Source: Escherichia coli
GTDB taxonomy: Bacteria; Pseudomonadota; Gammaproteobacteria; Enterobacterales; Enterobacteriaceae
Assembly: GCF_003334815.1 (NCBI RefSeq)
Contig: NZ_QOWO01000002.1
Length of the DNA: 64,000 nucleotides
Reading direction: 5' to 3' (one strand)
Shown: in pieces, positions 6,422 through 45,089 of the stretch
How the letters are laid out: each line of letters starts with the position of its first letter
Numbering within the stretch: the first letter of the stretch is position 1
Notes under the pieces: model-generated
Told to the model about the DNA's origin: nothing
The model's database searches: none
Seen by the model: the letters and a program-made list of their open reading frames with translations, nothing else
Made by a program: the position numbers and the translations under genes

Positions 6422-6742
6422 ATGGGTAAAACGAACGACTGGCTGGACTTTGATCAACTGGCGGAAGAAAAAGTTCGCGACGCGCTAAAACCGCCATCTA
6501 TGTATAAAGTGATATTAGTCAATGATGATTACACTCCGATGGAGTTTGTTATTGACGTGTTACAAAAATTCTTTTCTTATGATGTAGAACGTGCAACGCA
6601 ATTGATGCTCGCTGTTCACTACCAGGGGAAGGCCATTTGCGGAGTCTTTACCGCCGAGGTTGCAGAAACCAAAGTGGCGATGGTGAACAAGTACGCGAGG
6701 GAGAATGAGCATCCATTGCTGTGTACGCTAGAAAAAGCCTGA
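6422..6742 (+). CDS. clpS: ClpS, N-degron adaptor for ClpAP
   Basis: 106-aa ORF recognised as ClpS; immediately upstream of clpA. Confidence 0.93.
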
Positions 6743-6772: not shown

Positions 6773-9049
6773 ATGCTCAATCAAGAACTGGAACTCAGTT
6801 TAAATATGGCTTTCGCCAGAGCGCGCGAGCACCGTCATGAGTTTATGACCGTCGAGCACTTGTTACTGGCGCTGCTCAGTAACCCATCTGCCCGGGAGGC
6901 GCTGGAAGCGTGTTCTGTGGATTTGGTTGCGCTCCGTCAGGAACTGGAAGCCTTTATTGAACAAACCACACCCGTTCTGCCTGCCAGTGAAGAGGAGCGC
7001 GACACACAGCCGACGCTGAGTTTTCAGCGTGTACTGCAACGTGCGGTCTTCCATGTCCAGTCCTCCGGTCGCAATGAGGTTACCGGTGCAAACGTTCTGG
7101 TCGCTATCTTTAGCGAACAGGAGTCGCAGGCGGCATATCTGTTGCGTAAACATGAAGTCAGCCGTCTCGATGTGGTGAACTTTATCTCTCATGGCACGCG
7201 TAAAGACGAGCCGACACAGTCTTCTGATCCTGGCAGCCAGCCAAACAGCGAAGAACAAGCTGGTGGGGAGGAACGTATGGAGAATTTCACGACGAACCTG
7301 AATCAGCTTGCGCGCGTGGGCGGAATCGACCCACTGATTGGTCGTGAGAAGGAGCTGGAGCGTGCTATTCAGGTTCTCTGCCGTCGCCGTAAAAACAACC
7401 CGCTGCTGGTGGGGGAATCTGGTGTCGGTAAAACCGCGATTGCGGAAGGTCTTGCCTGGCGAATTGTTCAGGGCGATGTGCCGGAAGTGATGGCTGACTG
7501 TACGATTTACTCTCTCGATATCGGTTCTCTGTTAGCGGGCACAAAATATCGCGGCGACTTTGAAAAACGTTTTAAAGCGTTGCTCAAGCAGCTGGAGCAG
7601 GACACTAACAGCATCCTGTTTATTGATGAGATCCACACCATTATCGGTGCGGGTGCAGCGTCTGGTGGTCAGGTCGATGCGGCTAACCTAATCAAACCGT
7701 TGCTCTCCAGCGGTAAAATTCGTGTAATTGGTTCGACAACCTATCAGGAGTTCAGCAACATTTTCGAGAAAGACCGTGCTCTGGCGCGTCGCTTCCAGAA
7801 AATTGATATTACTGAACCGTCGATCGAAGAAACTGTTCAAATCATCAATGGCCTGAAACCGAAGTATGAAGCGCACCACGACGTGCGTTATACCGCAAAA
7901 GCGGTGCGTGCGGCGGTAGAGCTGGCGGTGAAATACATTAACGATCGTCATCTGCCGGATAAAGCCATTGATGTTATCGACGAAGCGGGCGCTCGCGCAC
8001 GCCTGATGCCGGTAAGCAAACGCAAGAAAACCGTTAATGTGGCGGATATTGAGTCCGTGGTGGCCCGTATTGCACGCATTCCAGAGAAGAGTGTTTCTCA
8101 GAGTGATCGTGATACCCTGAAAAACCTCGGCGATCGCTTGAAAATGCTGGTCTTCGGTCAGGATAAAGCCATTGAGGCGCTGACTGAAGCCATTAAGATG
8201 GCGCGTGCAGGTTTAGGTCACGAACATAAACCGGTTGGTTCGTTCCTGTTTGCCGGCCCTACCGGGGTCGGGAAAACAGAGGTGACGGTACAGCTTTCGA
8301 AAGCTTTGGGCATTGAGCTTCTGCGCTTTGATATGTCCGAGTATATGGAACGCCATACCGTCAGCCGTCTTATTGGTGCGCCTCCGGGATACGTTGGTTT
8401 TGATCAGGGCGGTTTGCTGACTGATGCGGTCATCAAGCATCCACATGCGGTGCTGCTGCTGGACGAAATCGAGAAAGCGCACCCGGACGTGTTCAATATT
8501 CTGTTGCAGGTGATGGATAACGGTACGCTGACCGATAACAACGGACGCAAAGCAGACTTCCGTAACGTGGTGCTGGTGATGACCACCAACGCCGGGGTAC
8601 GGGAAACTGAGCGCAAATCCATTGGTCTTATCCACCAGGATAACAGCACCGATGCGATGGAAGAGATCAAGAAGATCTTTACACCGGAATTCCGTAACCG
8701 TCTCGACAACATTATCTGGTTTGATCATCTGTCAACCGACGTGATCCATCAGGTGGTGGATAAATTCATCGTCGAGTTGCAGGTTCAGCTGGATCAGAAA
8801 GGTGTTTCTCTGGAAGTGAGCCAGGAAGCGCGTAACTGGCTGGCCGAGAAAGGTTACGACCGGGCAATGGGCGCTCGTCCGATGGCGCGTGTCATCCAGG
8901 ACAACCTGAAAAAACCGCTCGCCAACGAACTGCTGTTTGGTTCGCTGGTGGACGGCGGTCAGGTCACCGTCGCGCTGGATAAAGAGAAAAATGAGCTGAC
9001 TTACGGATTCCAGAGTGCACAAAAGCACAAGGCGGAAGCAGCGCATTAA
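6773..9049 (+). CDS. clpA: ClpA, ATP-dependent Clp protease ATPase/chaperone subunit
   Basis: ORF 6758..9049; start placed at [11 protein letters not shown] (758 aa); two AAA+ modules ([16 protein letters not shown]). Confidence 0.95.
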
Positions 9050-9392: not shown

Positions 9393-9480
9393 TGGCGGTG
9401 AGGGGGGGATTCGAACCCCCGATACGTTGCCGTATACACACTTTCCAGGCGTGCTCCTTCAGCCACTCGGACACCTCACC
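9393..9480 (-). tRNA. serW: tRNA-Ser (anticodon GGA), 88 nt including CCA
   Basis: Reverse complement reads GGTGAGGTGTCCGAGTGGCTGAAGGAGCACGCCTGGAAAGTGTG...GGTTCGAATCCCCCCCTCACCGCCA; long variable arm typical of class II tRNA-Ser. Confidence 0.93.
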
Positions 9481-9733: not shown

Positions 9734-9955
<222 letters not shown>

Positions 9956-10236
9956 ATCCTCTGGGGTATCACTACCGTAATTTGAACCGGCAAGATAATG
10001 CCGAAGTTCTGTAAATAAGTAAAGATTTGCGCGCTAAATCGCAACAAACAGGTTCGGCACATTACTCCGAAAACACACGGCTAAGCCGCACCAAAAGCGC
10101 AACGTATAAGGGAGCGGTGAGATAAACGATGGGCGTTACCTGACGCGAAAAATTCCTTATCGGCAGCGGGGTAATGAGCGTAACCAACTCTGCGACCGCA
10201 ATTATAACACTCTGGGGAGAAATGTGCCGAAAACAT

Positions 10237-10941
10237 TCATTCTTGTGGTGAAAACAAGCATCGTGGTACCCAGAAATTATTCGGCAATCGTCCGAGGCGC
10301 ATTTGATTGAGATAATTAAGGTAATCCCGGCGGGGAATTTCGCAGGCACCAAGCGATGCTGTGTGATCGTTAAGGACCTGGCAGTCGATAAGCTTACCGC
10401 CATGACCGATAAATTCCTCACAGAATACCAGAAGCGCCGTTTTAGACGCATTTTCCATCCGGCTGAACATGGACTCGCCACAAAATAGCGTTCCCTGGGC
10501 CACGCCGTACATACCGCCGACAAGCTCATCTTCACGCCAGACTTCAATGGCGTGGGCATGGCCGAGTTCGTGAAGGCGATGGTAGGCTTCGACCACGCCA
10601 CGCGTGATCCAGGTTCCTTCTTCGCGATCGCTGGCACAGCCTTCAATGACCTGACCAAAAGCGTAATTCATCGTGACACGATAGGGCGAGCGTTTATGAA
10701 ATCGCTTCATACTACGGCTGATATGCAGTGATTCTGGCCATAGCACCGCGCGGGGATCGGGCGACCACCAGAGGATGGGGTCGCCTGGAGAAAACTACGG
10801 AAAAATACCACGCTGGTAAGCCATTAACAGGCGCGCAGGGCTAAGATCGCCCCCAAGTGCCAGCAGGCCGTTAGGCTCACGTAATGCGCCTTCCGGGGAA
10901 GGGAAGGCTATTGAATGGCGAGAAAGCTGAACCAGGCGCAT
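10237..10941 (-). pseudogene. aat: Leucyl/phenylalanyl-tRNA-protein transferase (L/F-transferase) interrupted by an in-frame TAG at codon 49
   Basis: Minus-strand frame from ATG (complement of 10939-10941) reads [68 protein letters not shown], then continues into the 169-aa track ORF 10237..10746; stop is complement of 10795-10797. Confidence 0.8.
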
Positions 10942-10982: not shown

Positions 10983-12704
10983 TTACAAACCCTGCTTGAA
11001 CTGGTAATAACGCCCCTGTCTGGCAAGCAGTTCTGCGTGAGTACCTTGCTCAATAATTTGCCCGTTGTCCATCACTATTATTTGTTGGAAACGAGAGAGT
11101 CCGCGAAGTCGATGGGTGACCATTAACACCGTTTTCTCACGCATCATTTCTGCAAGCAATTCAAGGATCTGGCTTTCGGTTGTGGCATCTAAGCCTTCGG
11201 TAGGTTCATCCAGCAACACCAGTGGCGCATCATGTAACAGCGCACGGGCGATAGCCAGACGGCGCAGTTCACCACCGGAGAGCTGGCGTCCGCCTTCACC
11301 TAACCAACTGTTGAGACCTGCATCCTCGAGCAGCTTTTCCAGGCCAACGCGACGCAAGATCTCCGACAGAGCCTCATCACTACTGCCAGGCGAGGCGAGT
11401 AAAAGATTATCACGCAGCGTGGCGCTAAACAGATGCACTCGCTGAGGAACAACGCTGATGGTCTGTCGTAGAGCCGCTTCATTCAGGCTGGCTATGGGGC
11501 TATCGTTAAGCAAAATCTCGCCCTGTTGCGGGTCCCATGCGCGGGTCAGCAGTTGTAACAGTGTTGATTTGCCGCATCCGGTTCGCCCGAGAATCGCTAT
11601 ATGTTCCCCGGCGTTTACCTGAAGAGAAATCCCTTTAAGTGCCTGTTGAGATTGCTCCGGATAAGTGAACTGAACATCCCGTAACGTCAGCGAAACGCGA
11701 TCGGCAACACGAGTTTGGGTATCAGGAAAGGTGACCTCCGGTTTTTGATCCGTTAAGTCAGAGATACGTACGGCAGAGGCAATGACTTGCCCCAGATGCT
11801 GAAATGCACCCGTTACTGGTGCCAGTGCTTCAAACGCGGCTAACGCGCAGAAGACAAACAGGGCAATTAACGCGCCGGGTTGAGCATTGCCGCCAACGCC
11901 GCCAGACGCCATCCACAGCATCAGGATCACCGCTAACGCGCCAATGAGCAGCATTATCGCTTGCGACAATGCGGTCAGTTCAGATTGACGGCGTTGCGCT
12001 TCCAGCCATTGAATTTCTGTATTCTCTAGTTGCGTGCGATAACGATCGCTGGCACCAAAAATGGTCAGCTCAGCTTGCCCTTGCAGCCAGGCCGTCAGTT
12101 GTTGGCGATACTGTCCGCGAAGATGAGTCAGATTTTGCCCGGTGCTTTTTCCCGCACGATAAAACAGCGGTGGCATCAAGAAAAGCGTCAGTAACATAAT
12201 GCCGCCCAGCGTAAAGGCGAGGGTGAAATCAAGGAAACTTAACCCGATTGTCACCACCATAATCACCACAAAAGCGCCCACCAGCGGCGAGATAACGCGC
12301 AGGTAAAGATGATCGAGCGTATCAACATCCGCCACCACGCGATTGAGCAATTCGCCCTGACGATAGCGCGCCAGTCCGGCAGGGGAGAGGGGCAGCAATT
12401 TGCTGAAGGTGTAAATGCGCAGATGCTGCAACACGCGGAAAGTCGCGTCGTGACTTACCAGACGTTCAAAATAGCGCCCGGCAGTACGGGTGATTGCTGC
12501 GCCACGCACGCCCGCAGCGGGTAGCATATAGTTGAAGCTGTACAGTCCGGCAACCCCCGCAACCGCTGAGGCCGAGAGGAACCAGCCGGAAAGTGTCAAC
12601 AGACCGATACTGGCGAGCAGCGTCACAATTGCCAGCACAATACCAAGACTTAACATCCATTTATGACGTTTATACAGTGCCAGATAGGGTAGCAAAGCGC
12701 GCAT
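10983..12704 (-). CDS. cydC: Glutathione/cysteine ABC exporter subunit CydC
   Basis: 573-aa ORF; TM domain plus C-terminal ABC ATPase (GRTGCGKST, LSGGELRR). Confidence 0.92.
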   Translation of the reverse strand: MRALLPYLALYKRHKWMLSLGIVLAIVTLLASIGLLTLSGWFLSASAVAGVAGLYSFNYMLPAAGVRGAAITRTAGRYFERLVSHDATFRVLQHLRIYTFSKLLPLSPAGLARYRQGELLNRVVADVDTLDHLYLRVISPLVGAFVVIMVVTIGLSFLDFTLAFTLGGIMLLTLFLMPPLFYRAGKSTGQNLTHLRGQYRQQLTAWLQGQAELTIFGASDRYRTQLENTEIQWLEAQRRQSELTALSQAIMLLIGALAVILMLWMASGGVGGNAQPGALIALFVFCALAAFEALAPVTGAFQHLGQVIASAVRISDLTDQKPEVTFPDTQTRVADRVSLTLRDVQFTYPEQSQQALKGISLQVNAGEHIAILGRTGCGKSTLLQLLTRAWDPQQGEILLNDSPIASLNEAALRQTISVVPQRVHLFSATLRDNLLLASPGSSDEALSEILRRVGLEKLLEDAGLNSWLGEGGRQLSGGELRRLAIARALLHDAPLVLLDEPTEGLDATTESQILELLAEMMREKTVLMVTHRLRGLSRFQQIIVMDNGQIIEQGTHAELLARQGRYYQFKQGL

Positions 12705-16732: not shown

Positions 16733-19700
16733 TTGAGCCAGGAATACACTGAAGACAAAGAAGTCACATTGACAAAGTTAAGTAGCGGCCGCCGCCTTCT
16801 GGAGGCGTTGCTGATCCTTATTGTCCTGTTTGCCGTCTGGTTGATGGCTGCCTTACTAAGCTTTAACCCTTCGGACCCCAGCTGGTCGCAAACGGCCTGG
16901 CATGAACCTATCCATAATTTAGGTGGGATGCCCGGTGCGTGGTTGGCAGATACGCTGTTCTTTATTTTTGGCGTGATGGCTTACACCATTCCCGTCATTA
17001 TTGTCGGCGGTTGTTGGTTTGCCTGGCGTCATCAGTCCAGCGACGAATACATTGATTATTTTGCCGTTTCGCTACGCATCATTGGCGTTTTGGCGCTCAT
17101 CCTTACCTCCTGTGGTCTGGCGGCAATCAACGCTGACGATATCTGGTATTTTGCCTCCGGTGGCGTCATTGGCAGCTTACTAAGCACTACGCTACAACCA
17201 CTGCTACACAGTAGCGGGGGAACTATTGCGCTGCTCTGCGTTTGGGCAGCGGGCCTGACGTTGTTCACCGGTTGGTCATGGGTGACCATTGCTGAAAAAC
17301 TCGGCGGCTGGATTTTAAACATTCTCACCTTCGCCAGTAATCGTACCCGTCGCGATGATACCTGGGTCGATGAAGATGAGTATGAAGACGACGAAGAGTA
17401 TGAAGATGAAAATCACGGCAAACAGCATGAATCACGCCGTGCCCGTATTCTTCGCGGCGCGCTAGCGCGTCGTAAACGGTTGGCGGAAAAATTCATTAAT
17501 CCGATGGGGCGGCAAACAGACGCTGCGTTGTTCTCCGGTAAGCGGATGGATGATGACGAAGAGATTACCTACACTGCACGCGGTGTGGCTGCCGACCCGG
17601 ACGACGTCCTATTTTCGGGCAATCGTGCAACGCAGCCAGAATATGACGAATACGATCCATTATTAAACGGTGCGCCAATTACCGAACCTGTCGCTGTAGC
17701 AGCTGCTGCTACCACGGCGACACAAAGCTGGGCTGCGCCGGTTGAACCTGTGACTCAGACGCCGCCTGTTGCCTCTGTTGATGTTCCACCTGCGCAACCT
17801 ACAGTAGCCTGGCAGCCTGTACCGGGTCCACAAACGGGAGAGCCGGTTATTGCTCCTGCACCGGAAGGTTACCCACAGCAGTCACAATATGCGCAGCCTG
17901 CAGTGCAATATAATGAGCCGCTGCAACAACCAGTACAGCCGCAGCAGCCGTATTATGCACCTGCAGCTGAACAACCTGCGCAACAGCCGTATTATGCCCC
18001 TGCGCCAGAACAACCGGTGGCAGGTAACGCCTGGCAAGCCGAAGAGCAGCAATCCACTTTTGCTCCACAGTCTACATACCAGACTGAGCAAACTTATCAG
18101 CAGCCAGCCGCTCAGGAGCCGTTGTACCAACAGCCGCAACCCGTTGAACAGCAGCCTGTTGTGGAGCCTGAACCCGTTGTAGAAGAGACAAAACCCGCGC
18201 GTCCGCCGCTTTACTACTTTGAAGAAGTTGAAGAGAAGCGAGCCCGTGAACGTGAACAACTTGCGGCCTGGTATCAACCGATTCCAGAACCGGTTAAAGA
18301 ACCAGAACCGATCAAATCTTCGCTGAAAGCACCTTCTGTTGCAGCAGTACCTCCAGTAGAAGCCGCTGCCGCTGTTTCCCCGCTGGCATCTGGCGTGAAA
18401 AAAGCGACACTGGCGACGGGGGCTGCCGCAACCGTTGCCGCGCCAGTCTTCAGTCTGGCAAATAGCGGTGGACCGCGTCCTCAGGTCAAAGAGGGGATTG
18501 GTCCGCAGTTGCCACGACCGAAACGTATCCGCGTGCCAACTCGTCGTGAACTGGCGTCTTACGGTATTAAGCTGCCCTCACAGCGTGCGGCGGAAGAAAA
18601 AGCCCGTGAAGCCCAGCGCAATCAGTACGATTCTGGCGATCAGTACAACGATGATGAAATCGATGCGATGCAGCAGGATGAACTGGCACGTCAGTTCGCC
18701 CAGACACAGCAGCAACGCTATGGCGAACAGTATCAACATGATGTGCCCGTAAACGCAGAAGATGCAGATGCTGCGGCAGAGGCTGAACTGGCTCGTCAGT
18801 TTGCGCAAACTCAACAACAACGTTATTCCGGCGAACAACCGGCTGGGGCGAATCCGTTCTCGCTGGATGATTTTGAATTTTCGCCAATGAAAGCGTTGCT
18901 GGATGATGGTCCACACGAACCGTTGTTTACGCCAATTGTTGAACCTGTACAGCAGCCGCAACAACCGGTTGCACCGCAGCAGCAATATCAGCAGCCGCAA
19001 CAACCAGTTCCGCCGCAGCCGCAGTATCAGCAGCCACAACAGCCGGTTGCGCCGCAGCCACAATATCAGCAGCCGCAACAACCGGTTGCGCCACAGCAGC
19101 AATATCAGCAGCCGCAACAACCGGTTGCGCCGCAGCAGCAGTATCAGCAGCCACAACAGCCAGTTGCGCCACAACCGCAGGATACCCTGCTTCATCCGCT
19201 GTTGATGCGTAATGGCGACAGCCGTCCGTTGCATAAACCGACGACGCCGCTGCCTTCTCTGGATTTGCTGACACCGCCGCCGAGCGAAGTGGAGCCGGTA
19301 GATACCTTTGCGCTTGAACAAATGGCTCGCCTGGTGGAAGCGCGTCTGGCTGATTTCCGTATTAAAGCCGATGTCGTCAATTACTCTCCGGGGCCGGTTA
19401 TCACTCGCTTTGAATTGAACCTGGCACCGGGCGTAAAAGCGGCGCGCATTTCTAACTTGTCACGGGACCTTGCCCGTTCACTTTCGACGGTGGCGGTGCG
19501 TGTCGTTGAAGTTATTCCTGGCAAACCCTATGTAGGTCTGGAGTTACCGAATAAAAAACGACAAACCGTTTATCTGCGCGAAGTTTTGGATAACGCCAAA
19601 TTCCGCGATAATCCGTCGCCATTAACCGTGGTGCTGGGTAAAGATATCGCCGGTGAGCCGGTGGTTGCCGATCTGGCGAAAATGCCGCACTTGTTGGTTG

Positions 19701-43663: not shown

Positions 43664-45089
43664 TAATGCCAGTCAGTTAAGCAACTGACTGGCTCTTTTT
43701 CGGGGCTGTGGGGTATTTCCAGGGCCTCTCCTTTACCACTCTCGGGAAGGCCCTTTCCCTTCTTGTCGGTAATTTCACAAGTTGTCCCATACTTGCAAGA
43801 TCGCGCATCAGCTCCGGTATACGTCCCGGTGAAGCGCCCTGCAATGTCATCAGCATTCTCATCACCATTCCGCATGATTCTGAGAAACTCAGTTGATTCG
43901 GCCAGTAACCTTTCAGATGTTCCGCCATTTTAATTATCTGATATCTCACCAGATTATAAGCCAGTAAGACACCCCACAGCTCTTGCTCCACAAGCTCCGG
44001 TTTTTTACTTCTCAGCGTCAGCCTGCTCAGTTGCATCGTCTGTTTTATCTCCCTGTATCCCAGTTCGATTTCCCAGCGATGACTGTACAGATCCGCCATT
44101 TCTCCTCCGGGGAAGCGCATGGCGTCCGTCATCGACGTCAGCAGATGGCAGACTTTTCCTTTGCGCGTCACGGTCAGCAGGCGGGCAGTCACTTCATTTC
44201 CCAGTCCCGGCCACTTTTTTCGTGCCTGCGGGCTGGTTTTCAGCTTCACCAGATGATCGCCTTTACCCAGTTTTCTGATCTCTTCATATTGCGCTCCCTT
44301 TCTGAGAGGTATCATCCAGTGGCGGTGTTCTCCCGCCAGGCTCCAGGCATTTAACAGTCCCAGTGAGTAATAACCTTTATCCATTAACGTCAGAGTGTTA
44401 TCGCCGGTTTGTTCTATAAGTTGCTCAGCAAGCTCATTTTCGCTGTTCTTCATCGTGCCGAAGGCTGCAGCCGTCAGCAGATGGCTGGTCAGTTCCATCT
44501 GGCAGACCATTTTGACCTGCGGGTAGAGCGCCGGGTTCCCGGCATGTGTCTGGCGGGGGAAGGCTGCATCGTTCTCTGGTGTATCCGGTGTGCGCCAGAA
44601 CACACCATCGATGGCCAGCAGGGTCAGGCCGCACCAGTGCGGATGCGGCGTGGCGTTATGCCAGAGCTGCGCTGTTTTCGTGAACACGCGGCGGACAGCC
44701 TCACTTCCCAGGCGCTGGCGGGCCTGAATAACGGCACTGGGGGCAACGAAGGGGCGATTGCCCGGCAGCATGATGTCCAGGCGATTCACAATCTGGTGAA
44801 GAGGTTCTTTACGCTCAAGCGCCATGCCAACAATACACCAGACCATCATTTCGAGGGGAAGACGGCGCTTGCGTAGCGTTACAGTACCTGATTCGGCAAG
44901 GCAACGAGAGATGAGTTCGGGGTCGAGGTAATCCCCCAGAGAAGTCAGTGGGTTACGCAGAGAATCGTAACGGGATACCAGATCAAGAGCCTGTCCAATG
45001 TGCATAAAAAAATCCGGAAACAAGTGAGCGTTTCCGGATTCTTACACAGCCACTGGATCGGTCAACTGATCCTTAACTGATCGGCATTA
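43664..45089 (-). mobile_element. IS4: Insertion sequence IS4 (1426 bp), complete
   Basis: Encodes the IS4 transposase InsG; 18-bp imperfect terminal inverted repeats taatgccagtcagttaag and taatgccgatcagttaag (16/18); length 1426 bp; 13-bp direct duplication of target. Confidence 0.92.
43677..45005 (-). CDS. insG: IS4 transposase (DDE family)
   Basis: ORF 43677..45023; start placed at [24 protein letters not shown] (442 aa); recognised as IS4 InsG. Confidence 0.93.

What the first reader, a model, noticed from the sequence alone, without database searches (positions are those of the whole stretch)
10237..10941. aat (L/F-tRNA-protein transferase) carries an in-frame amber codon at position 49
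On the minus strand the frame from the aat ATG reads ...[17 protein letters not shown]...; the homologous position is Trp (TGG) in the Aat sequence as I recall it, so this is a single G-to-A nonsense change (complement of 10795-10797). The rest of the gene is intact and in frame. Aat makes the secondary N-degrons (Leu/Phe added to N-terminal Lys/Arg) recognised by ClpS-ClpAP, both encoded 1-4 kb upstream and apparently intact. A null aat would disable that branch of the N-degron pathway while leaving primary N-degron recognition in place. Alternatives are a sequencing error, an amber-suppressor background, or reinitiation at the internal GTG at 10746 giving an N-terminally truncated, probably inactive protein.
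Basis: partly seen in the sequence, partly recalled or inferred. Interest (0 to 1): 0.6.

Follow-up and report, generated by a model that had tools for sequence, protein, structure and literature searches.

The report
Natural amber-stop knockout of E. coli aat
A single G-to-A change turns the conserved Trp49 codon of the E. coli aat gene into a stop codon; the change is real and inherited in a small natural lineage, but it is an ordinary loss of a dispensable gene rather than a new kind of biology.

Summary
It is the only nonsense or frameshift difference from K-12 across 62.5 kb of aligned window. Trp49 is conserved in 124 of 130 divergent Aat homologs, inside a G-[IVL]-F-P-W motif.

It is not a sequencing error. 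Three independently assembled public datasets match the window at 100% over 7–12 kb, TAG included. None of 5,426 complete E. coli genomes matches the window's aat allele exactly.

Stops at codon 49 also occur on other E. coli backgrounds (TAG and TGA) and in Klebsiella. A control shows that nonsense alleles at Trp68 and Trp111 are at least as frequent, so codon 49 is not a hotspot.

No suppressor tRNA lies in the window, the stop context is TAG-T, and downstream restart codons have weak ribosome-binding sites.

Best reading: a heritable null allele that removes the Leu/Phe-addition branch of the ClpS–ClpAP Leu/N-degron pathway. clpS and clpA are identical to K-12.

The parts
10237..10941 (-). 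aat (leucyl/phenylalanyl-tRNA--protein transferase) reading frame, interrupted once; effectively a pseudogene
   Evidence: With codon 49 restored, the protein scores 312.8 bits against the TIGR00667 aat equivalog (cut-off 143.55). The gene order cydD-cydC-aat-infA-serW matches K-12.
10795..10797 (-). Premature amber codon TAG replacing Trp49 (TGG); the mutated base is 10796
   Evidence: The stop context is TAG-T. Trp is present at this column in 124 of 130 homologs.
10795..10941 (-). Residual 48-residue N-terminal fragment ORF, including the stop
   Evidence: The exact 48-aa product has been called as a gene in public assemblies. It has no family hit on its own.
10237..10746 (-). Downstream in-frame ORF from GTG66 (169 aa); a hypothetical restart product lacking residues 1-65
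   Evidence: Shine-Dalgarno pairing is -2.7 kcal/mol against -5.9 for the native aat start. ATG78 (10710) scores +1.0 and ATG91 (10671) scores -1.9.
10551..10551 (-). Second difference from K-12 inside aat: S131A (TCC to GCC)
   Evidence: It is shared with strain 52F4, which has TGG at codon 49. It is absent from the TAG-carrying loci L007 and L012.
6422..6742 (+). clpS, the N-recognin adaptor that reads primary N-degrons; intact
   Evidence: There is no difference from K-12 DNA between window 3964 and 10551. Annotation was transferred.
6773..9049 (+). clpA, the unfoldase partner of ClpS; intact
9734..9952 (-). infA, the essential gene downstream of aat; intact
10201..10230 (-). Promoter-like site immediately downstream of the aat stop, upstream of infA
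   Evidence: TCGGCA-18-TATAAT preceded by TG, matching 10 of 12 positions. This is a consensus match only. It suggests that infA expression does not depend on read-through from aat.
9393..9480 (-). serW tRNA-Ser (anticodon GGA), the only tRNA in the window; not a suppressor
   Evidence: It is identical to K-12.

Best explanation
The window comes from a natural phylogroup-A-like E. coli that is close to K-12 and NCTC86 in this region but is not either strain. In it, a spontaneous G:C-to-A:T transition converted the conserved Trp49 codon of aat to amber. Translation stops after 48 residues, so no functional L/F-transferase is made and aat is a pseudogene. As a result, proteins whose N-terminus is a secondary destabilising residue (Arg, Lys, and in special cases Met or Thr) can no longer receive the Leu or Phe that ClpS recognises. 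[quoted passage not shown] Direct recognition of N-terminal Leu, Phe, Tyr and Trp by the intact ClpS-ClpA system is unaffected. The allele is inherited and found in several independent samples. It is one of many sporadic null alleles of this dispensable gene. Shown: the mutation, its reality, its heritability, the conservation of the lost residue, and the intact partner genes. Inferred: the absence of protein and the pathway consequence.
For: (1) TAG replaces TGG at codon 49. It is the only nonsense or frameshift change among 18 SNPs against K-12 in 62.5 kb, with no indels outside one IS4 insertion, so the assembly is clean.

(2) The identical allele on identical flanks (0 differences over 7.2-12.4 kb) is present in NCBI assembly GCA_965212685.1 and in Logan assemblies of SRR3951465 and SRR3823859. 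The SRR3823859 contig is seen in 5 samples.

(3) The TAG also occurs on the ancestral sub-haplotype (L007 = GCA_002522095.1, L012 = SRR3974853). These lack the window's two extra derived substitutions at 10551 and 12179, so the null allele has either persisted while the lineage diverged or arisen twice.

(4) Trp49 is present in 124 of 130 homologs of 41-61% identity, within G-[IVL]-F-P-W. The first 69 residues are identical between the E. coli and Klebsiella-like loci despite about 77% DNA identity.

(5) The restored protein is a clear TIGR00667 equivalog and is identical, apart from S131A, to the crystallised E. coli enzyme in 2DPS, 2CXA and 2Z3K.

(6) The window holds no suppressor tRNA. The in-frame restarts have weak ribosome-binding sites.

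(7) The role of Aat/LFTR in attaching Leu or Phe to N-terminal Arg, Lys or Met, and the viability of aat-null strains, is documented in bioRxiv 10.1101/2021.07.26.453911. Engineered in-frame stop codons are the standard way to make aat-null strains (PMC12258705).
Against: No read-level data or protein-level data could be examined. The rest of the genome could not be searched for an amber-suppressor tRNA. Low-level natural read-through of UAG, or weak reinitiation at GTG66, could leave trace activity. The pathway consequence is inferred from published deletion strains and has not been measured in this strain.
Confidence: 0.85

Rival explanations
1. The TAG is a sequencing or assembly error, and the strain really has TGG and a working aat.
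For: None of 5,426 complete E. coli genomes has this aat allele. A single-base substitution is the smallest possible artefact.
Against: The same base, on flanks identical over 7-12 kb, appears in three separately generated datasets: one NCBI assembly and two SRA runs assembled by Logan, one of whose contigs recurs in 5 samples. The window has no indels and no other disrupted gene against K-12 over 62.5 kb. The site is not in a homopolymer and is not a Dam or Dcm motif; the context is CCGTGG.
Confidence: 0.03
2. The amber codon is suppressed or read through efficiently, so that useful amounts of full-length Aat are still made.
For: The rest of the frame is intact, and the gene has not decayed beyond one extra missense change, S131A. 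The whole genome could not be checked for suppressor tRNAs.
Against: The only tRNA in the window is wild-type serW. The window differs from K-12 by 18 SNPs and an IS4, so it is not a K-12 laboratory derivative, which is where supE and supF alleles are common. This is an inference. From established knowledge (Poole, Brown and Tate 1995, recalled and not re-checked here), UAG followed by U is an efficient termination context in E. coli. Most suppressors would insert Gln, Tyr, Ser or Leu at a position that is Trp in 95% of homologs. The stop is not conserved in relatives, which argues against programmed recoding.
Confidence: 0.05
3. Translation reinitiates downstream at GTG66, ATG78 or ATG91 and yields an N-terminally truncated protein that keeps part of the activity.
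For: The 169-aa GTG66 product still scores 260 bits against TIGR00667. It would keep the R76/R80/K83/R84 tRNA-docking cluster (PMC4105747) and the GNAT-like C-terminal part. Gene callers do predict 144-157-aa C-terminal fragments in such alleles.
Against: GTG66 lies 51 nt past the stop and has weak Shine-Dalgarno pairing: -2.7 kcal/mol against -5.9 for the native start. ATG78 and ATG91 are weaker still. Any such product lacks residues 1-65, including the near-invariant GxFPW motif and W58 (130/130) and W59 (110/130). ATG78 and ATG91 products would also lose part or all of the positive cluster.
Confidence: 0.05
4. Codon 49 is a mutational hotspot, or loss of aat is positively selected, which would explain why stops at W49 recur in E. 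coli (TAG and TGA) and in Klebsiella.
For: Stops at codon 49 occur on at least five distinct backgrounds: K-12-like TAG, L011 TAG (99.2% identity), L010 and L013 TGA (about 98% identity), and Klebsiella-like TAG in three assemblies.
Against: The look-up could only find stops at codon 49, so it was biased towards them. In the matched control, blocks with contigs of at least 5 kb numbered 27 for W49*, 36 for W68* and 61 for W111*, each on many backgrounds. Fragment lengths that do not correspond to any stop are equally abundant, which reflects contig breaks. The site is not a Dcm CCWGG motif. Recurrence at this sampling depth is what a dispensable gene would be expected to show.
Confidence: 0.07

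Closest known systems
E. coli K-12 aat (b0885), L/F-transferase or LFTR; crystal structures 2DPS/2DPT, 2CXA and 2Z3K-2Z3P
   Same: Same gene at the same position (cydDC-aat-infA-serW). The DNA is 99.7% identical. The restored protein is identical to the crystallised enzyme except for S131A.
   Different: Codon 49 is TAG instead of TGG, so only a 48-residue peptide is expected. There is also an S131A substitution.
Laboratory aat-null strains: the Keio-type aat deletion used in bioRxiv 10.1101/2021.07.26.453911, and the BL21 aat- strain made by inserting in-frame stop codons (PMC12258705)
   Same: The expected functional outcome is the same: no LFTR, loss of docking of LFTR-dependent ligands to ClpS, and viable cells. 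The BL21 strain uses the same principle of premature stop codons.
   Different: This allele arose naturally, is a single amber codon, and sits in a wild-type-like non-K-12 background. Its phenotype has not been measured.
Other natural aat nonsense alleles in public data: W68*, W111*, W59*, Q149* and W49* (TGA) in E. coli, and W49* (TAG) in Klebsiella
   Same: Same class of event: a G:C-to-A:T transition at a Trp or Gln codon of aat with intact neighbouring genes.
   Different: They have different positions and/or backgrounds. The window's haplotype (TAG plus A131 plus the synonymous cydC change at 12179) was found in only three of the retrieved datasets.

Membership tests
Leucyl/phenylalanyl-tRNA--protein transferase (Aat/LFTR; TIGR00667, PF03588) | Sequence matches the curated equivalog model above its cut-off | tested here: met
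   The restored protein scores 312.8 bits against a cut-off of 143.55. E-value against PDB 2DPS is 6e-166.
Leucyl/phenylalanyl-tRNA--protein transferase (Aat/LFTR; TIGR00667, PF03588) | Orthologous genomic position (cydD-cydC-aat-infA) | tested here: met
   Gene order is identical to K-12, NCTC86 and NMBU-W12E19.
Leucyl/phenylalanyl-tRNA--protein transferase (Aat/LFTR; TIGR00667, PF03588) | Uninterrupted reading frame encoding the full-length enzyme of about 234 residues | tested here: not met
   There is a TAG at codon 49. The locus is therefore the aat gene but not a functional member of the family.
Leucyl/phenylalanyl-tRNA--protein transferase (Aat/LFTR; TIGR00667, PF03588) | Conserved G-[IVL]-F-P-W motif, including Trp49 | tested here: not met
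   Trp is present in 124 of 130 homologs; here the codon is a stop. The structural role of Trp49 could not be checked, because the structure papers are not held.
Leucyl/phenylalanyl-tRNA--protein transferase (Aat/LFTR; TIGR00667, PF03588) | Transfers Leu or Phe from aminoacyl-tRNA to N-terminal Arg or Lys | not testable with these tools
   Needs an enzyme assay or an in vivo reporter.
Pseudogene by nonsense mutation | Premature stop at a codon that is a sense codon in close orthologs | tested here: met
   TGG in K-12, NCTC86, NMBU-W12E19 and 52F4. None of the 4,499 complete genomes matched by the 71-nt probe has the stop.
Pseudogene by nonsense mutation | The allele is reproducible in independent sequence data, so it is not an artefact | tested here: met
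   L014, L016 and L017 are 100% identical to the window, TAG included.
Pseudogene by nonsense mutation | No suppression or rescue of the stop in the host | tested here: inconclusive
   The window holds no suppressor tRNA and the restart sites are weak, but the rest of the genome is unavailable.
Programmed stop-codon recoding or read-through | The stop codon is conserved at that position among orthologs | tested here: not met
   Orthologs have Trp at this position. Stops there are rare and sporadic, and occur as either TAG or TGA.
Mutational hotspot (for example 5-methylcytosine deamination at Dcm CCWGG sites) | The site lies in the hotspot motif and recurs more often than comparable sites | tested here: not met
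   The context is CCGTGG, which is not CCWGG. Blocks with contigs of at least 5 kb number 27 for W49*, 36 for W68* and 61 for W111*.

The most novel reading that the evidence does not exclude
Loss of aat is not neutral decay but is repeatedly favoured in gut Enterobacteriaceae. Independent nonsense alleles at W49, W59, W68, W111 and Q149 in many E. coli backgrounds, and at W49 in Klebsiella, would then reflect parallel adaptive shutdown of the secondary-N-degron branch, for example to stabilise LFTR-dependent substrates such as PATase, AldB, AccD or SufD under some host or stress condition. The window's lineage, in which the null allele has either persisted through further divergence or arisen twice, would be one such case.
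Probability: 0.08. Interest if true: 0.5.

Novelty: new member of a known kind. Interest (0 to 1): 0.15.

Why it matters
[quoted passage not shown] Natural lineages that have lost only the LFTR branch while keeping ClpS and ClpA are ready-made comparisons for asking what that branch is for outside the laboratory. Beyond that, the finding mainly matters for annotation: aat should be flagged as a pseudogene in this genome. It reveals no new mechanism.

Tried and rejected
(1) Sequencing error was rejected after finding the identical allele in three independent datasets.

(2) Codon 49 as a hotspot looked attractive after the first look-up, which found TAG and TGA stops in E. coli and TAG in Klebsiella. 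It was rejected after the control with other Trp and Gln codons. The raw count of 161 contigs is also inflated by contigs that simply end near the codon (L015, P0018-P0020).

(3) Dcm-site deamination was rejected because the sequence context is wrong.

(4) A K-12 laboratory strain with supE or supF was rejected. The window differs from MG1655 by 18 SNPs and an IS4, and it shares the IS4 site with NCTC86-like natural strains.

(5) The abundant 38-aa frameshift allele P0100 (435 contigs) was considered as evidence that aat loss is common. Most long contigs carrying it also have a fragmented cydC, so they are probably indel-prone assemblies slipping in a G5 run.

(6) I tried to find the structural role of Trp49. 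The Suto 2006 and Dong 2007 papers are not held, and full-text searches for Trp49 or W49A together with the enzyme name returned nothing. The conservation analysis was used instead.

(7) I looked for literature on natural aat nonsense alleles and found none.

(8) The exact source assembly was not pinned down. GCA_965212685.1 contig CBDBYT010000006.1 (150 kb) is a candidate but is unproven.

Full report
**1. The observation**

On the minus strand, the frame opening at the ATG at 10941 reads [48 protein letters not shown], then TAG at 10797..10795. It then continues in frame as [10 protein letters not shown]... to the normal stop at 10237. The gene is flanked by cydC (10983-12704, minus) and infA (9734-9952, minus), as in E. 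coli K-12. With codon 49 restored, the protein scores 312.8 bits against the NCBIfam aat equivalog TIGR00667, whose cut-off is 143.55. Apart from S131A, it is identical to the crystallised E. coli enzyme in 2DPS, 2CXA and 2Z3K.

**2. What changed**

The window was aligned base for base with K-12 MG1655. There are 18 substitutions in 62.5 kb, no indels, and one 1,426-bp insertion.

- The substitution at 10796 turns TGG (Trp49) into TAG. It is the only nonsense or frameshift change among the 18.
- The gene carries one more difference, S131A at 10551.
- Strain 52F4 has an aat that differs from the window's at 10796 only.
- NCTC86 also has TGG.
- clpS (6422-6742) and clpA (6773-9049) show no difference at all from K-12.

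**3. Was Trp the ancestral and important state?**

A search of 1.84 billion representative proteins gave 7,115 homologs. I aligned 130 near-full-length ones of 41-61% identity. The residue-49 column is Trp in 124 of them, and it sits in a G(127)-[IVL]-F(127)-P(129)-W motif. W58 and W111 are invariant. The first 69 residues are identical between the E. coli loci and the Klebsiella-like loci, even though the DNA is only about 77% identical. So the stop removes everything from a strongly constrained motif onward. I could not verify the specific structural role of Trp49, because the structure papers are not held.

**4. Real allele or artefact?**

None of 5,426 complete RefSeq E. coli genomes has the window's aat allele; the best is 99.9%. 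None of the 4,499 genomes matched by a 71-nt probe centred on the codon matches it perfectly. The other 927 were not matched by the probe and were not assessed at this codon.

The exact 48-residue N-terminal product has nevertheless been called as a gene in public assemblies. Fetching those contigs gave three datasets that are 100% identical to the window over 7.2-12.4 kb, including TAG and A131:

- NCBI GCA_965212685.1, a 150-kb contig;
- Logan SRR3951465;
- Logan SRR3823859, whose contig is seen in 5 samples.

All neighbouring genes in these loci are full length. Together with the indel-free match of the window to K-12, this excludes a sequencing error for practical purposes.

**5. A small lineage, not a single cell**

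Two further datasets (GCA_002522095.1 and SRR3974853) carry TAG on the ancestral haplotype. They lack the window's derived alleles at 10551 and 12179. Because 52F4 has A131 with TGG, all four combinations of the two aat sites exist. Either one of the two changes arose twice, or recombination separated them. This is an inference and is unresolved. Either way, the null allele is heritable. It has either persisted while further substitutions accumulated, including a missense change inside the dead gene, or arisen more than once.

The window shares its IS4 insertion site next to aroA with 40 complete genomes, including NCTC86. It differs from NCTC86 by 23 substitutions over 9393-64000. It is therefore a natural strain related to K-12 and NCTC86-like strains, not a K-12 laboratory derivative.

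**6. Is codon 49 special?**

The same look-up also returned stops at codon 49 on other backgrounds: TAG in L011 (99.2% identity), TGA in L010 and L013 (about 98% identity), and TAG in three Klebsiella-like assemblies. This looked like a hotspot, but the look-up could only find stops at that codon.

As a control, I looked up the fragments expected from the other transition-accessible nonsense sites.

| Allele | Blocks in all | Blocks with contigs of at least 5 kb |
|---|---|---|
| W49* | 247 | 27 |
| W68* | 149 | 36 |
| W111* | 145 | 61 |

Restricting to contigs of at least 5 kb selects cases where the fragment is an internal stop rather than a contig end. All twenty control loci that I inspected carry real TAG or TGA codons on many different backgrounds. 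Fragment lengths that match no stop (47, 49, 63 and 66 aa) are found on 134-238 contigs, which shows that short contigs simply break in this region. The site is not a Dcm motif. So codon 49 is not a hotspot. Nonsense alleles of aat are scattered over the gene, as expected for a dispensable gene sampled very deeply.

**7. Could the stop be bypassed?**

- The only tRNA in the window is wild-type serW, with anticodon GGA. The rest of the genome is not available to me.
- The stop is followed by T. From established knowledge that I recalled but did not re-check, UAG-U is an efficient termination context in E. coli.
- The in-frame restart candidates are GTG66 (10746), ATG78 (10710) and ATG91 (10671). 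Their Shine-Dalgarno pairing energies are -2.7, +1.0 and -1.9 kcal/mol, against -5.9 for the native aat start and -5.8 for infA.
- A GTG66 product would keep the R76/R80/K83/R84 tRNA-docking cluster (PMC4105747). It would still lack the invariant GxFPW and WW motifs.
- I found no evidence for rescue, though trace activity cannot be excluded.
- infA has a good promoter-like site of its own directly after aat, at 10230-10201. Polarity on this essential gene is therefore unlikely. This is an inference.

**8. Consequence**

LFTR, encoded by aat, attaches Leu or Phe to proteins that begin with Arg or Lys, and in particular cases Met or Thr. That creates the primary degron which ClpS delivers to ClpAP. 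Strains deleted for aat are viable and lose the LFTR-dependent ClpS ligands PATase, AldB, AccD and SufD (bioRxiv 10.1101/2021.07.26.453911). Engineered in-frame stops are a standard way to make aat-null strains (PMC12258705). I therefore infer that this lineage lacks the secondary-degron branch while keeping direct recognition of Leu, Phe, Tyr and Trp. clpP lies outside the window and was not examined.

**9. Verdict**

The feature is a genuine, heritable nonsense allele that makes aat a pseudogene in a small natural E. coli lineage. It is an ordinary event in a dispensable, well-studied gene, and similar alleles already sit unremarked in public databases. Interest is low (0.15). The only more ambitious reading that remains open is that aat loss is recurrently selected in gut enterobacteria. 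My control argues against any special status for this codon but does not test the gene-wide rate; I give that reading a probability of about 0.08.

Noticed in passing
window 43664-45089: A 1,426-bp IS4 insertion (448-aa transposase ORF on the minus strand at 43677-45023), flanked by a 13-bp target duplication CGGCACATTGTCG. It lies between aroA and ycaL and is absent from K-12 MG1655. The same aroA-side junction is present in 40 complete E. coli genomes, including NCTC86.
   Followed up: yes
window 21813, 50877, 56307 (also 10551, 12179, 58889): Alleles derived in the window relative to both K-12 and NCTC86 include three missense changes: rarA A104E, ycaI Q537R and kdsB G170S (kdsB is essential). 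Overall the 18 differences from K-12 comprise 11 non-synonymous changes (including W49*), 6 synonymous changes and 1 intergenic change. That is a high non-synonymous share, typical of very recent divergence. The effects were not assessed.
   Followed up: partly
window 18950-19183 (inside ftsK): A self-similar stretch: two 192-195-nt segments offset by 39 nt match at about 87% in the BLAST comparisons with K-12 and NMBU-W12E19. This suggests imperfect 39-nt tandem repeats in the ftsK linker region.
   Followed up: no
L006, L008, L009 (SRR12783059, GCA_900085685.1, GCA_023062875.1), codon 49 of aat: Klebsiella-like loci (77-82% DNA identity to the window) carry the same Trp49-to-TAG change. The Aat N-terminus (residues 1-69) is 100% identical to that of E. 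coli. I did not determine whether these three are one clone.
   Followed up: partly
L018-L037 (aat codons 111 and 68): Real TAG or TGA stops at Trp111 and Trp68 of aat occur in many different E. coli backgrounds, including complete chromosomes and gut metagenome scaffolds. Sporadic natural aat knockouts are therefore not rare.
   Followed up: partly
L040-L047 (aat codons 29-31, G5 run): A frameshift product of 38 aa (P0100) is recorded on 435 contigs. In most of the long contigs that carry it, the neighbouring cydC is also broken into pieces, which points to homopolymer indel errors in long-read assemblies. At least one short-read contig (L043) has an intact cydC, so some cases may be real.
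   Followed up: partly
aat codons 47-50 in Logan contigs (P0018-P0020, L015): Hundreds of short public contigs end within a few bases of codon 49: fragments of 47 aa on 206 contigs, 49 aa on 134 contigs, and 50 aa. These are probably assembly-graph breaks at a nearby common polymorphism (codon 47 is TTT or TTC) in mixed samples. They inflate naive counts of truncated aat.
   Followed up: partly
L038 1-9392 and L039 22337-23569 (NCTC86): NCTC86 has a genomic island inserted at serW in place of the clpA side of the window. The island carries an Ag43-family adhesin, a CbtA/YeeU toxin-antitoxin pair and an antirestriction gene. NCTC86 also has an annotated internal stop in ycaQ. The window has neither.
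   Followed up: no
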